The notes under the pieces were generated by a model. The model searched no databases. It saw only the letters and a program-made list of their open reading frames with translations, and was not told where the DNA came from. From assembly GCF_003790525.1 (NCBI RefSeq), contig NZ_CP033635.1: DNA of 64,000 bases, one strand, 5' to 3'. A program made the position numbers and the translations under genes. Shown one piece after another: positions 17,219 through 29,369 of the stretch (within the stretch, counting starts at the first letter, position 1; each line of letters begins with the position of its first letter). The stretch is from Escherichia coli. Its GTDB lineage: Bacteria; Pseudomonadota; Gammaproteobacteria; Enterobacterales; Enterobacteriaceae.

Positions 17219-17509
17219 TCACTCATCCAGCCGTTTTGTCGCGTCTTCATAAACGGCTGAGTTTTCTCTCTTACCAATAGCTATCACCAACACGAGTAAC
17301 TCTTTATCATTGACGGAATAGACCAGGCGATATCCCAGTGTGCGCAGCTTAATTTTGTAGCAGTCCGGTAAATCCCGCAGTTTAGCCGATGGATTGCGCG
17401 GCCTTTTCAGCACATCCTCAAGCTTTTTTTTAAATTGTTCCCGGACTGTCACGCCCAGTTTTTGCCACTCTTTCAGCGCCCGCGGATCAAACGCCAGCTC
17501 ATAGTTCAT
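17219..17509 (-). CDS. RelE/ParE-family type II toxin (about 96 aa)
   Basis: Inside ORF 17219..17587 the ATG at 17507-17509 gives MNYELAFDPRALKEWQKLGVTVREQFKKKLEDVLKRPRNPSAKLRDLPDCYKIKLRTLGYRLVYSVNDKELLVLVIAIGKRENSAVYEDATKRLDE, which I recognise as closely RelE-like; it overlaps the upstream antitoxin by 11 nt. Confidence 0.85.
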   Translation of the reverse strand: MNYELAFDPRALKEWQKLGVTVREQFKKKLEDVLKRPRNPSAKLRDLPDCYKIKLRTLGYRLVYSVNDKELLVLVIAIGKRENSAVYEDATKRLDE

Positions 17510-17741
17510 CCAGTCGGACCTTAATGGCCTCTTGTGGGTTGGCCAGTCGTTCCCTGACAGTGCGTAACAAGGCTTCTTCACTATCACTGACAGTGAGCGT
17601 TTTTACCGGCATTCGTCCATTTTCCGCAACGTACTGAAACAGCAGCCGCACTGCTTCAGTAGGCGTAATATTTAATTTTTCCAGCACCGCATAAGCCTCA
17701 TTTTTCAGTTTGTCATCCAGGCGGACGTTAAGTGTGGCCAT
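17499..17741 (-). CDS. RelB/DinJ-family antitoxin (80 aa)
   Basis: ORF MATLNVRLDDKLKNEAYAVLEKLNITPTEAVRLLFQYVAENGRMPVKTLTVSDSEEALLRTVRERLANPQEAIKVRLDEL resembles RelB; RBS GGAGGC precedes the ATG at 17739-17741. Confidence 0.85.
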   Translation of the reverse strand: MATLNVRLDDKLKNEAYAVLEKLNITPTEAVRLLFQYVAENGRMPVKTLTVSDSEEALLRTVRERLANPQEAIKVRLDEL

Positions 17742-17765: not shown

Positions 17766-17800
17766 TGTAATGCATTATAGCATTACATATGCATTACATT
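17766..17800. promoter_or_regulatory. Candidate autoregulatory operator/promoter of the relBE-like module
   Basis: gtgtaatgcattatagcattacatatgcattacatt contains three GCATTA(C/T) repeats with palindromic character immediately upstream of the antitoxin start. Confidence 0.55.
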
Positions 17801-28484: not shown

Positions 28485-28562
28485 GTTCTTCTAGCGTAAT
28501 AACCCTGAACGCCGGGCTTCGGTTAGTAGGGGTTTTTTATGCCCGCGATAAATAAACACACC

Positions 28563-28913
28563 TTATTCCACCACCGCCTGCAAACGTAATAACGCCTCTT
28601 CCACCACCTCACCCGCAGCCAGACCAATACGCTTTGCCAGCCGGGCGCGTAGATCCATCATCCGCACCTGATTCACCAGCACCACGCCGTGCACATCGCC
28701 TTCTTCGCAATGTAAAGGAACGCTAAATCCGGCATAACGGGCAAAATTTCCGCCCTGCGTAATGGGGGCCACCAGCGTCATTCCCAGTTGATTAAAGGCT
28801 TGAACGGAGAGCACAAGCGCAGGTCGACCAGCACCTTGCTGTTCATGGCCGCTTGCTGGATCAAAGCCAACCAGCACAATGTCTCCCCGTTCAAATTCAC
28901 TTTTCTTTACCAT
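28563..28913 (-). CDS. chpB: MazF-like endoribonuclease toxin ChpB (ChpBK), 116 aa
   Basis: ORF MVKKSEFERGDIVLVGFDPASGHEQQGAGRPALVLSVQAFNQLGMTLVAPITQGG... Confidence 0.93.
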   Translation of the reverse strand: MVKKSEFERGDIVLVGFDPASGHEQQGAGRPALVLSVQAFNQLGMTLVAPITQGGNFARYAGFSVPLHCEEGDVHGVVLVNQVRMMDLRARLAKRIGLAAGEVVEEALLRLQAVVE

Positions 28914-29158
28914 ATTTCGTCACCCGCAGGGGTGGATTTACCCCAGACATCCTGCTCGCTAAGTTCCGTGGCGTTCATGTCACACTGTGCCAGCAGTTCA
29001 TCAAGCGAGTAGCGCCTGGAGATGGGTGTCAGAATCAGTTGATTGTTGCTCACTTGCGCCTCCACGCTCTGCCCCGGCCGTAAGTTAAGTTCTTTCATCA
29101 CAACATTAGGAATGACCATACCTGAACTGTTCCCCCATCTTTTTATGGTAATACGCAT
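28907..29158 (-). CDS. chpS: Antitoxin ChpS (ChpBI, AbrB/MazE fold), 83 aa
   Basis: ORF 28907..29164; start taken at MRITIKRWGNSSGMVIPNVVMKELNL...; overlaps chpB by 7 nt. Confidence 0.9.
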   Translation of the reverse strand: MRITIKRWGNSSGMVIPNVVMKELNLRPGQSVEAQVSNNQLILTPISRRYSLDELLAQCDMNATELSEQDVWGKSTPAGDEIW

Positions 29159-29171
29159 CTGCACCTCCTTA

Positions 29172-29190
29172 AGTTATACAAAGTATAACT
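29172..29190. promoter_or_regulatory. Candidate chpSB operator palindrome
   Basis: agttatac-aaa-gtataact perfect inverted repeat just upstream of chpS. Confidence 0.55.
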
Positions 29191-29327
29191 CACGGTGCTA
29201 CAGGAAACGTTTTACCCCTGCGCATTTGTGAACGCCAGCAGAGTTTTTTATGCGTTAACAGATATGGAAAGCGGCTCGGAGAGAAAAGCAAAAGGTGAGG
29301 GAATTACAAAACAGAATGCGAGTCGTC

Positions 29328-29358
29328 TCGCAAAAAACAACGCCACCCGAAGGTGGCG
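29328..29358 (-). terminator. Intrinsic terminator downstream of ytfP (end of the tamA-tamB-ytfP unit)
   Basis: Minus-strand cgccaccttcgggtggcg hairpin followed by ttgttttttg. Confidence 0.75.
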
Positions 29359-29369
29359 TATGCGTATGG

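What the first reader, a model, noticed from the sequence alone, without database searches (positions are those of the whole stretch)
28563..29190. chpSB toxin-antitoxin pair with an upstream palindrome (second type II TA module in the window)
ChpS/ChpB (MazE/MazF-like) overlap by 7 nt and are preceded by an agttatac-aaa-gtataact palindrome. Together with the relBE-like pair the window carries two TA systems, one core and one apparently accessory.
Basis: partly seen in the sequence, partly recalled or inferred. Interest (0 to 1): 0.2.

Follow-up and report, generated by a model that had tools for sequence, protein, structure and literature searches.

The report
Known chpSB toxin-antitoxin operon and operator
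This is the well-known E. coli chpS-chpB toxin-antitoxin operon with its conserved palindromic control site, so the finding is correct but ordinary; the one correction is that only 57% of complete E. coli genomes carry it, so it is not a core gene pair.

Summary
chpB (28563-28913, minus strand) and chpS (28907-29158, minus strand) overlap by 7 nt. A perfect AGTTATAC-N3-GTATAACT palindrome (29172-29190) lies just upstream of the chpS Shine-Dalgarno sequence.

Both proteins pass NCBI's ChpB and ChpS equivalog models. They sit between ytfP and ppa, as in K-12, and differ from K-12 by 2 and 4 residues.

An 8-bp palindrome is not rare by itself: the window has 24, against about 10 expected. Its 17-bp core, however, is almost invariant in eight diverged lineages from at least five named genera, while the rest of the spacer drifts. 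It also shares the GTTATA/TATAAC half-sites and position of the parD/pemIK operator that the Kis antitoxin footprints. It is therefore very probably the ChpS/ChpB autorepression operator, overlapping an invariant -10-like TATACT. Binding and the transcription start were not tested.

chpSB is in 3097 of 5426 complete genomes, and 2322 others carry a decayed chpB remnant. The relBE-like pair is in 389.

Side observations: a CRP-S-type TGCGA-N6-TCGCA site upstream, lineage-specific extension of the palindrome over the SD and AUG, and one strain in which a five-base change made that extension perfect. Already known; low interest.

The parts
28563..28913 (-). chpB, a MazF/PemK-family endoribonuclease toxin of 116 aa
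   Evidence: It is an intact ORF. Pfam PemK_toxin matches at 3.7e-25. The NCBIfam ChpB equivalog scores 226.8 bits against a cutoff of 129. The nearest solved structure is Kid 1M1F, E 6e-21. R30 and T52 align with MazF R29 and T52. It differs from K-12 by 2 substitutions.
28907..29158 (-). chpS, a MazE/AbrB-type antitoxin of 83 aa
   Evidence: Pfam MazE_antitoxin matches residues 5-49 at 1.5e-11. The NCBIfam ChpS equivalog scores 192.8 bits against a cutoff of 101. The nearest solved structures are MazE 1MVF and 1UB4, about 7e-7, and the KRWGNS DNA-binding loop is conserved. It differs from K-12 by 4 substitutions.
28907..28913 (-). 7-nt overlap ATGGTAA, where the chpB start codon overlaps the chpS stop codon
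   Evidence: This is read directly from the sequence. The same gene coordinates, and so the same overlap, are called in six other lineages; in two metagenomic contigs chpB is called from a later start.
29164..29169 (-). Shine-Dalgarno sequence AGGAGG of chpS, ending 5 nt before the ATG
   Evidence: Read from the sequence. GGAGG has a majority fraction of 0.97 across 8 lineages.
29172..29190 (.). Palindrome AGTTATAC-TTT-GTATAACT as read on the coding strand. The conserved 17-bp core GTTATAC-N3-GTATAAC is 29173-29189. This is the inferred ChpS/ChpB operator.
   Evidence: The repeat is perfect. The core has a majority fraction of 0.97 against 0.62 for the unnamed rest of the spacer across 8 lineages. 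Its half-sites and position match the Kis-footprinted parD region I, GTTATATTTAAATATAAC. The 76 bp around it are identical in 2818 of 3097 chpSB-positive genomes.
29182..29187 (-). TATACT, a -10-like hexamer inside the distal arm. It predicts a transcription start near 29175, which is MG1655 position 4448430.
   Evidence: It is invariant in all 11 aligned sequences, including the first spacer T. Its position matches the parD -10, which overlaps the left half of region I. No good -35 was found, and no TSS data could be retrieved.
29159..29203 (-). Extended quasi-palindrome with 21-nt arms, 76% complementary, covering the SD and reaching the ATG
   Evidence: Found by the repeat search. As RNA it folds at -22.6 kcal/mol, z -4.4. 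The left flank is more complementary to the SD/AUG flank than shuffled left flanks in most lineages, Fisher p about 3e-5. It is perfect in strain O111:H2 08-3342.
29209..29215 (-). GTAAAAC, a conserved island one mismatch from the GTATAAC half-site and about 31 bp from the palindrome centre
   Evidence: (majority fraction 0.88). Any role as an auxiliary ChpS site is conjecture.
29148..29154 (-). GTATTAC in chpS codons 2-4. Most other genera have a perfect GTATAAC here, using the Ile codon ATA.
   Evidence: It lies about 30 bp from the palindrome centre. It is in coding sequence, so its conservation is ambiguous.
29317..29332 (.). TGCGA-N6-TCGCA, a CRP-S-type core, 159-174 nt upstream of the chpS ATG. 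The promoter/terminator scan also flags it as a weak hairpin after the ytfP terminator.
   Evidence: It occurs once in the window against 0.07 expected. TGCGn-N6-nCGCr is retained in most genera although the stem-forming bases are not. TGCGA is the CRP-S core. chpSB is reported as induced by sxy overexpression.
29340..29359 (-). Intrinsic terminator of ytfP, ACGCCACC-loop-GGTGGCGT followed by a T run. It marks the upstream limit of the chpSB control region.
   Evidence: Its majority fraction is 0.93 across lineages.

Best explanation
The region is the chromosomal chpS-chpB (chpBI-chpBK) type II toxin-antitoxin operon of E. coli. ChpB is a MazF/Kid-like endoribonuclease. ChpS is its labile antitoxin, with an N-terminal AbrB/MazE-type DNA-binding domain and a C-terminal toxin-binding tail. 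The two genes are read from one transcript and are probably translationally coupled through the 7-nt overlap. The 17-bp palindrome GTTATAC-N3-GTATAAC between the promoter region and the SD is the operator. A ChpS dimer, helped by ChpB as co-repressor, binds it and blocks a promoter whose -10 (TATACT) lies in the distal arm. When ChpS is degraded, the operon is de-repressed. What is shown here: gene identity, anatomy, conservation of the palindrome, and its homology to the footprinted Kis operator. What is inferred: ChpS binding, the promoter position, and co-repression by ChpB.
For: Both proteins match the equivalog models above their cutoffs, and the Pfam domains agree. A strain 100% identical over the spacer is annotated chpB/chpS in RefSeq. 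The locus is the same as K-12 b4224/b4225, and the proteins are 79/83 and 114/116 identical to K-12. ChpB R30 and T52 align with MazF R29 and T52, and ChpS keeps the MazE KRWGNS loop. The palindrome core is nearly invariant (0.97) in 8 diverged lineages from Escherichia, Enterobacter, Lelliottia, Leclercia, Trabulsiella and metagenomes, while the unnamed remainder of the spacer is at 0.62. The parD/pemIK region I palindrome GTTATATTTAAATATAAC is footprinted by Kis and Kid-Kis and overlaps the -10 (PMC1865072). It shares the GTTATA/TATAAC half-sites and sits at -35 from its start codon, against -32 for the chpS palindrome. ChpB's nearest solved relative is Kid. The chpBI-chpBK operon is reported to be autoregulated (Santos-Sierra 1998, as cited in PMC1802561). 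More distant homologues in Massilia, Rheinheimera and Alteromonas carry different repeats at the same place, as expected if operator and antitoxin co-evolve.
Against: No binding or transcription data for this site could be retrieved. No consensus sigma-70 promoter is detected upstream of chpS: the -35 is poor, and the TSS is unknown (searches gave nothing). The half-site spacing is 1 bp shorter than in parD. There is no conserved second palindrome like parD region II. Invariance of the core could partly reflect the embedded -10 hexamer rather than protein contacts on both arms. An 8-bp palindrome alone is not statistically unusual in this window.
Confidence: 0.88

Rival explanations
1. The palindrome works mainly in the RNA. 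In transcripts that start upstream of it, for example from a promoter served by the CRP-S-type site or by read-through from ytfP, the extended hairpin (29159-29203) masks the chpS SD and AUG. It would then tune antitoxin translation, and DNA binding by ChpS would be secondary.
For: The 61-nt leader folds at -22.6 kcal/mol (z -4.4), with the SD and AUG partly paired. In 8 diverged lineages the left flank differs in sequence yet stays complementary to the SD/AUG flank more than shuffled flanks do; per-lineage p runs from 0.005 to 0.435, Fisher about 3e-5. A CRP-S-type core lies upstream, and chpSB is reported to be Sxy-inducible. hicAB offers a precedent for two promoters with different translational outcomes.
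Against: RNAalifold supports only the invariant core stem, with no compensatory pairs and no alignable outer helix. The probability that the SD is paired is not above the shuffled controls in several lineages, including this one. The core is invariant rather than covarying, which fits protein or RNA polymerase recognition. In the homologous parD the transcript starts inside the palindrome. Flank complementarity can arise from template-switch mutation without selection, as seen in strain 08-3342. No long transcript has been shown.
Confidence: 0.15
2. The palindrome has no regulatory role of its own. It is an AT-rich promoter segment (a -10 hexamer and its surroundings) that happens to be symmetric.
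For: Perfect 8-bp inverted repeats are common in the window, 24 in all. TATACT in one arm and TATAAC in the other are both -10-like.
Against: Both arms are conserved base for base across genera, although only one arm is needed for a -10. The same symmetric half-sites occur at the same place in parD, where they are footprinted by the antitoxin. The flanks immediately next to the core are free to vary.
Confidence: 0.05
3. The module in this strain is a decaying or inactive copy, like the remnants found in other strains.
For: 43% of complete E. coli genomes carry only a decayed chpB remnant at this site, so loss is tolerated.
Against: Both ORFs are intact, with the SD, the overlap and the conserved catalytic Arg and Thr in place. 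There are only 2 and 4 conservative differences from K-12. The same alleles exist as RefSeq proteins in many genomes.
Confidence: 0.04

Closest known systems
chpSB (chpBI-chpBK, b4224-b4225) of E. coli K-12
   Same: It occupies the same locus between ytfP and ppa, in the same order and with the same 7-nt overlap. The 5' region from -74 to the start codon is identical. ChpS is 79/83 and ChpB 114/116 identical. Both proteins hit the equivalog models.
   Different: There are only allelic differences: ChpS S12A, V19I, R27Q and T64A, and ChpB R89H and G101D, written window to K-12. Three base differences lie further up the spacer.
parD (kis-kid) of plasmid R1, the same as pemIK of R100
   Same: Kid is the nearest solved relative of ChpB, and the antitoxin is of the AbrB/MazE type. 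The operator palindrome has GTTATA/TATAAC half-sites placed 32-35 nt before the start codon, with a -10 in its distal half.
   Different: ChpS is only about 37% identical to PemI. The half-sites are 5 bp apart rather than 6. There is no conserved second region-II pseudo-palindrome. Kid residues R73 and D75 are L and N in ChpB. parD is on plasmids and chpSB is chromosomal. No extended -10 TG is present.
mazEF (chpA) of E. coli
   Same: It belongs to the same toxin and antitoxin superfamilies. ChpS aligns with MazE along its whole length.
   Different: The mazEF operator is an 'alternating palindrome' overlapping two promoters (described in PMC3879964), not a single 17-bp palindrome. The locus is different, and both proteins score far below the cutoffs of the MazE and MazF equivalog models.
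hicAB of E. coli, which has a Sxy/CRP-S promoter P1 plus an antitoxin-repressed promoter P2
   Same: chpSB shows a possible parallel: a CRP-S-type core upstream, an antitoxin operator next to the gene, and reported induction by sxy overexpression.
   Different: The proteins are unrelated and the gene order is opposite. For chpSB neither promoter has been mapped here, so the parallel is a lead and not a finding.

Membership tests
ChpS/ChpB (E. coli chpSB) | The toxin matches the ChpB equivalog model above its curated cutoff | tested here: met
   NF007320 scores 226.8 bits against a cutoff of 129, over the full length 1-116.
ChpS/ChpB (E. coli chpSB) | The antitoxin matches the ChpS equivalog model above its curated cutoff | tested here: met
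   NF008463 scores 192.8 bits against a cutoff of 101, over the full length 1-83.
ChpS/ChpB (E. coli chpSB) | Same chromosomal position and order as K-12 (tamB-ytfP-chpS-chpB, convergent with ppa) | tested here: met
   The protein identities to K-12 are 79/83 and 114/116.
ChpS/ChpB (E. coli chpSB) | ChpB arrests growth by ribosome-independent mRNA cleavage, and ChpS neutralises it | not testable with these tools
   This is known for K-12 from the literature (Masuda 1993; Zhang 2005, cited). It is inferred here from near-identity.
MazEF / PemIK (Kis-Kid) type II TA superfamily | PemK/MazF toxin domain | tested here: met
   PF02452 matches at 3.7e-25. Kid 1M1F matches at E 6e-21 and MazF 1UB4 at 1e-9.
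MazEF / PemIK (Kis-Kid) type II TA superfamily | AbrB/MazE-type N-terminal DNA-binding domain in the antitoxin | tested here: met
   PF04014 matches residues 5-49 at 1.5e-11. The alignment to MazE shows a conserved KRWGNS loop.
MazEF / PemIK (Kis-Kid) type II TA superfamily | Antitoxin gene first, and toxin gene overlapping or abutting it | tested here: met
   The overlap is 7 nt.
MazEF / PemIK (Kis-Kid) type II TA superfamily | MazF catalytic Arg and Thr (R29 and T52 in E. coli MazF; the residue roles come from my own knowledge of the literature) | tested here: met
Kid (parD) subtype | Kid residues R73 and D75, which were proposed to be catalytic (from my own knowledge of the literature) | tested here: not met
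   They align with L and N in ChpB, while H17 is kept as H23.
MazEF / PemIK (Kis-Kid) type II TA superfamily | Autorepression through antitoxin binding to a palindromic operator that overlaps the promoter | tested here: inconclusive
   The palindrome is present, conserved, and homologous to the Kis-footprinted site. Autoregulation of chpB is reported. Binding and the TSS were not testable, and the -35 is weak.
parD-type two-site operator | A second pseudo-palindrome (region II) about 50 bp upstream | tested here: not met
   No second palindrome was found. There is only a conserved single half-site-like GTAAAAC at -57.
CRP-S (Sxy-dependent CRP) site | A TGCGA-type core half-site in a 16-bp CRP-like site | tested here: met
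   TGCGAGACGACTCGCA, read on the coding (minus) strand, lies at 29317-29332, one hit against 0.07 expected. The motif definition comes from PMC1635313 and PMC6728893.
CRP-S (Sxy-dependent CRP) site | Asymmetric half-sites, Sxy dependence, and a class-I-like distance to a transcription start | not testable with these tools
   The site here is symmetric. A symmetric site in the Psxy context was active without Sxy. chpSB is reported to be induced by sxy, but no TSS is known.
E. coli core genome | Present in essentially all genomes of the species | tested here: not met
   It is present in 3097 of 5426 complete genomes, and 2322 carry the remnant allele.

The most novel reading that the evidence does not exclude
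The invariant operator may be the centre of a longer hairpin that is re-invented in each lineage and pairs the upstream flank with the chpS SD and AUG. With the conserved CRP-S-type site 160 nt upstream, this would give two classes of chpSB transcript. Long transcripts, induced by Sxy/CRP or arising by read-through, would have antitoxin translation masked. Short transcripts from the promoter embedded in the operator would be freely translated. Promoter choice would then set antitoxin translation, and with it the toxin:antitoxin ratio, as proposed for hicAB.
Probability: 0.12. Interest if true: 0.4.

Novelty: already known. Interest (0 to 1): 0.12.

Why it matters
It matters little as a discovery. 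chpSB has been known since 1993, its toxin is biochemically characterised, and its autoregulation has been reported. The checks still add three things. First, they give a sequence-level argument for where the ChpS operator is, namely a 17-bp core conserved across genera and matching the Kis site. No direct footprint for it turned up in the open literature searched. Second, they correct the core/accessory label: chpSB is a clean two-allele presence/remnant polymorphism, 57% against 43% of complete E. coli genomes. This matters to anyone who uses chpSB as a marker or compares K-12 with B strains, which lack it. Third, they yield testable leads on extra control layers: a CRP-S-type site and SD-masking flanks.

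Tried and rejected
TSS evidence. Four attempts to find a mapped chpS transcription start failed. Two papers were not held, one supplement was truncated, and two supplements were absent or had no hits. A text search was also unproductive. The 1993 and 2009 primary papers are not held.

Promoter scans. The consensus scan found no sigma-70 promoter on the chpS strand. It also missed the known parD promoter, so it is uninformative here. My relaxed PWM scan gave only weak candidates.

Sigma-54 reading. I considered reading TGGCGT...ATGC as a sigma-54 promoter and rejected it by eye: the spacing is off by one and it is not conserved (sequences).

Rfam. There were no relevant hits.

The first protein search returned only E. 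coli microvariants. Re-querying with the Enterobacter ChpS gave the useful genera.

RNAalifold found no conserved outer helix, so the SD-masking idea rests only on per-lineage folding.

parD-like region II. The GTTAAC pseudo-palindrome at 29254-29259 is not conserved, even within E. coli alleles.

Introgression of the remnant from another genus was rejected, because it is closest to Escherichia chpB.

The GC-rich filler in strain HH45's spacer looks like an assembly artefact and was not interpreted.

Full report
OBSERVATION. The sequence and ORF list show two overlapping minus-strand genes. One is a 116-aa ORF at 28563-28913. The other is an 83-aa ORF at 28907-29158, counted from its ATG. An AGGAGG Shine-Dalgarno sequence (29164-29169) ends 5 nt before the ATG. 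The alternative in-frame GTG at 29164 lies inside the SD and is not conserved in other genera, so the ATG is the start, as RefSeq also annotates. The palindrome agttatac-aaa-gtataact is at 29172-29190 and is perfect, 8+3+8. It extends imperfectly to 21-nt arms (29159-29179 and 29183-29203, 76% complementary) that run over the SD up to the start codon.

IS IT MORE THAN CHANCE? Not by itself. The window contains 24 perfect inverted repeats with arms of at least 8 and spacers up to 10, against 9.7 +/- 2.6 in first-order Markov simulations. Many of the others look like GC-rich terminator stems. The case for function rests on position, conservation and homology, described below.

IDENTITY. Pfam gives PemK_toxin (3.7e-25) and MazE_antitoxin (1.5e-11). 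NCBI's equivalog models give ChpB at 226.8 bits (cutoff 129) and ChpS at 192.8 bits (cutoff 101). The MazF and MazE equivalogs score far below their cutoffs. The 885-bp ppa-ytfP spacer is 100% identical to E. coli AR_0077, where the genes are annotated chpB and chpS. The neighbourhood (tamA-tamB-ytfP-chpS-chpB, convergent with ppa, then ytfQRT-yjfF) is that of K-12 b4224/b4225. ChpS differs from K-12 at 4 residues and ChpB at 2. No ChpB or ChpS structure is in the PDB. The nearest solved relatives are Kid (6e-21) and MazF for the toxin, and MazE for the antitoxin. ChpB R30 and T52 align with MazF R29 and T52 (the residue roles are from my knowledge of the MazF literature). Kid's R73 and D75 are L and N in ChpB. 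ChpS keeps the KRWGNS loop of MazE.

THE PALINDROME. Three lines of evidence point to an operator.

(1) Homology to a footprinted site. The parD (kis-kid) operator region I of plasmid R1 is the perfect palindrome GTTATATTTAAATATAAC. Kis and Kid-Kis protect it, and its left half overlaps the -10 (PMC1865072). In a pemIK plasmid that palindrome starts 35 nt before the pemI ATG. The chpS palindrome AGTTATAC-TTT-GTATAACT starts 32 nt before the chpS ATG. Both have the half-sites GTTATA and TATAAC, separated by 6 bp in parD and 5 bp in chpSB.

(2) Phylogenetic footprint. ChpS homologues 75-87% identical occur in Enterobacter, Lelliottia, Leclercia, Trabulsiella and several metagenomic contigs. Wherever the upstream genes are visible, they sit directly downstream of tamB-ytfP. 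In an 11-sequence alignment of the ytfP-chpS spacer, TTATACT-n-TGT-A-TAAC is invariant apart from two single-base deviations. Over eight distinct lineages the 17-bp core has a majority fraction of 0.97 and the SD 0.97. The immediately adjacent flanks are at 0.46-0.57 and the unnamed rest of the spacer at 0.62.

(3) Conservation within E. coli. The 76 bp around the palindrome are identical in 2818 of 3097 chpSB-positive genomes, while the whole 885 bp is at least 99% identical in only 538.

More distant homologues in Massilia, Rheinheimera and Alteromonas have different repeats at the same place. This is what one expects if operator and antitoxin co-evolve. The literature states that chpBI-chpBK is autoregulated (Santos-Sierra 1998, cited in PMC1802561). 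I found no paper in the held library that defines the operator.

MECHANISM (inferred). A ChpS dimer binds the palindrome through its AbrB-type domain, and ChpB strengthens binding, as in Kis-Kid. Binding occludes a promoter whose -10 is the invariant TATACT (29182-29187) in the distal arm. That places the start near 29175 (MG1655 4448430) and gives a leader of about 17 nt carrying the SD. The weak point is the promoter. No consensus promoter is detected, the -35 is poor, and I could not retrieve TSS data.

CORE OR ACCESSORY? chpSB covers at least 80% of the query in 3097 of 5426 complete E. coli genomes. BL21(DE3) and 2321 others instead have a 379-bp spacer. That spacer keeps the last 11 nt of chpB and then 127 nt that align to chpB codons 7-48. 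The alignment is 72% identical with E 2e-14, and the remnant reads with stop codons in every frame. After that the spacer resumes at 29208, so chpS and the palindrome are gone. In strain HH45 the same piece is 93% identical to chpB and PGAP annotates it as a partial PemK/MazF pseudogene. The remnant is closest to Escherichia chpB, not to that of another genus. The two alleles together account for 5419 of 5426 genomes. chpSB is therefore ancestral at this locus but has been lost in 43% of sampled genomes, so it is not core. The relBE-like pair (relE 17219-17509, relB 17499-17741, between nrdG and cybC) is in 389 genomes.

OTHER THINGS SEEN IN THE SPACER.

(a) TGCGA-N6-TCGCA at 29317-29332 is a CRP-S-type core, one hit against 0.07 expected. 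The outer TGCG...CGCA bases are retained in most genera while the stem-forming inner bases are not, which favours a protein site over a hairpin. The scan also flags it as terminator-like. sxy overexpression is reported to induce chpSB. However, a symmetric TGCGA/TCGCA site was Sxy-independent in another promoter context.

(b) Further conserved islands are TGYAAT, TTTCC, CTGCTGG..TTCACA and GTAAAAC. They are also kept in chpSB-less strains. GTAAAAC, and GTAT(A/T)AC in chpS codons 2-4, are one or zero mismatches from the half-site and lie about 30 bp either side of the palindrome centre. About 0.6 such hits per spacer are expected by chance, so only their conservation is notable.

(c) The flanks of the palindrome differ between lineages, yet in most lineages they remain complementary across the SD and AUG. 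MFE compared with left-flank shuffles gives p from 0.005 to 0.435 in eight lineages, Fisher 3e-5. However, RNAalifold finds no alignable outer helix and no compensatory pairs.

(d) Strain O111:H2 08-3342 has five clustered substitutions that turn the imperfect arms into a perfect 21+3+21 palindrome, -38 kcal/mol as RNA. This is the signature of a quasipalindrome template-switch mutation. The process could itself generate flank complementarity without selection.

VERDICT. The finding is correct and describes a known system. The palindrome is very probably the ChpS/ChpB operator, by conservation and by homology to the Kis site. The 'core' remark should be dropped. Novelty: already known. Interest is low. 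The only mildly novel reading is promoter-dependent masking of the chpS SD combined with a CRP-S-type input. It is not excluded but is weakly supported.

Noticed in passing
window 28485-29369, compared with L002 (BL21(DE3)) 2501-2879 and L027 (HH45) 1142-1653: The ppa-ytfP spacer has two alleles: intact chpSB in 3097 complete E. coli genomes and a decayed remnant in 2322. The remnant keeps the last 11 nt of chpB plus 127 nt of chpB codons 7-48; chpS and the operator are deleted, and the junction is at window 29208. It is 72% identical to chpB in BL21 and 93% in HH45, where PGAP calls it a PemK/MazF pseudogene. Together the two alleles cover 5419 of 5426 genomes.
   Followed up: yes
L011 (E. 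coli O111:H2 08-3342) 711-771, equivalent to window 29150-29210: Five clustered substitutions (TAGCACCGTG to CACCTCCTTA) make the imperfect 21-nt arms a perfect 21+3+21 palindrome covering the SD. This looks like a quasipalindrome template-switch mutation. Only 1 of the 3097 chpSB-positive genomes falls in that identity band.
   Followed up: partly
window 29317-29332: TGCGAGACGACTCGCA, read on the coding (minus) strand, is a symmetric CRP-S-type core (TGCGA-N6-TCGCA). It lies 159-174 nt upstream of chpS, just after the ytfP terminator. There is one hit against 0.07 expected. The outer bases are conserved across genera, and the site is retained in chpSB-less strains. The literature reports induction of chpSB by sxy overexpression.
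   Followed up: partly
window 29209-29215 and 29148-29154: Half-site-like 7-mers flank the palindrome at about 30 bp on each side. One is the conserved GTAAAAC upstream. The other is GTATTAC in chpS codons 2-4, which is a perfect GTATAAC in most other genera through the Ile codon ATA. They may be auxiliary antitoxin contacts or may be coincidence.
   Followed up: partly
window 29227-29241 and 29303-29308: Conserved spacer islands CTGCTGGCGTTCACA and TGTAAT have no assigned function. The first contains a TCACA CRP-like half-site centred about 60 nt upstream of the predicted start. Both are retained in chpSB-less strains.
   Followed up: no
window 17219-17741 and 17766-17787: The relBE-like pair (relE 17219-17509, relB 17499-17741, 11-nt overlap) lies between nrdG and cybC and is present in only 389 of 5426 genomes. 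RelB passes an equivalog model at 130 bits. RelE only just passes TIGR02385, at 28.0 against 27.9. A perfect inverted repeat TGTAATGC-attata-GCATTACA sits 25 nt upstream of the relB start and is a candidate operator.
   Followed up: partly
window, near the start (about 1.6-2.1 kb by mapping to AR_0077; not verified because of indels): tabA (yjgK), the 'toxin-antitoxin biofilm protein' reported to be induced when five TA loci including chpB are deleted, is annotated in the matching part of strain AR_0077. The window is not collinear with AR_0077 over its whole length: a position-by-position comparison drifts, and there is a 128-bp offset at the relBE pair.
   Followed up: no
L019-L026 and L008 (Lelliottia, Leclercia, Trabulsiella, Enterobacter, metagenomic contigs): chpS-chpB sits directly downstream of tamB-ytfP in these genera wherever the upstream genes are visible; in the Trabulsiella locus no upstream genes were called. 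The gene on the other side varies: ppa, a TonB-dependent receptor, an MCP or an MFS transporter. In two metagenomic contigs chpB is called from a later start, giving 104 aa.
   Followed up: no
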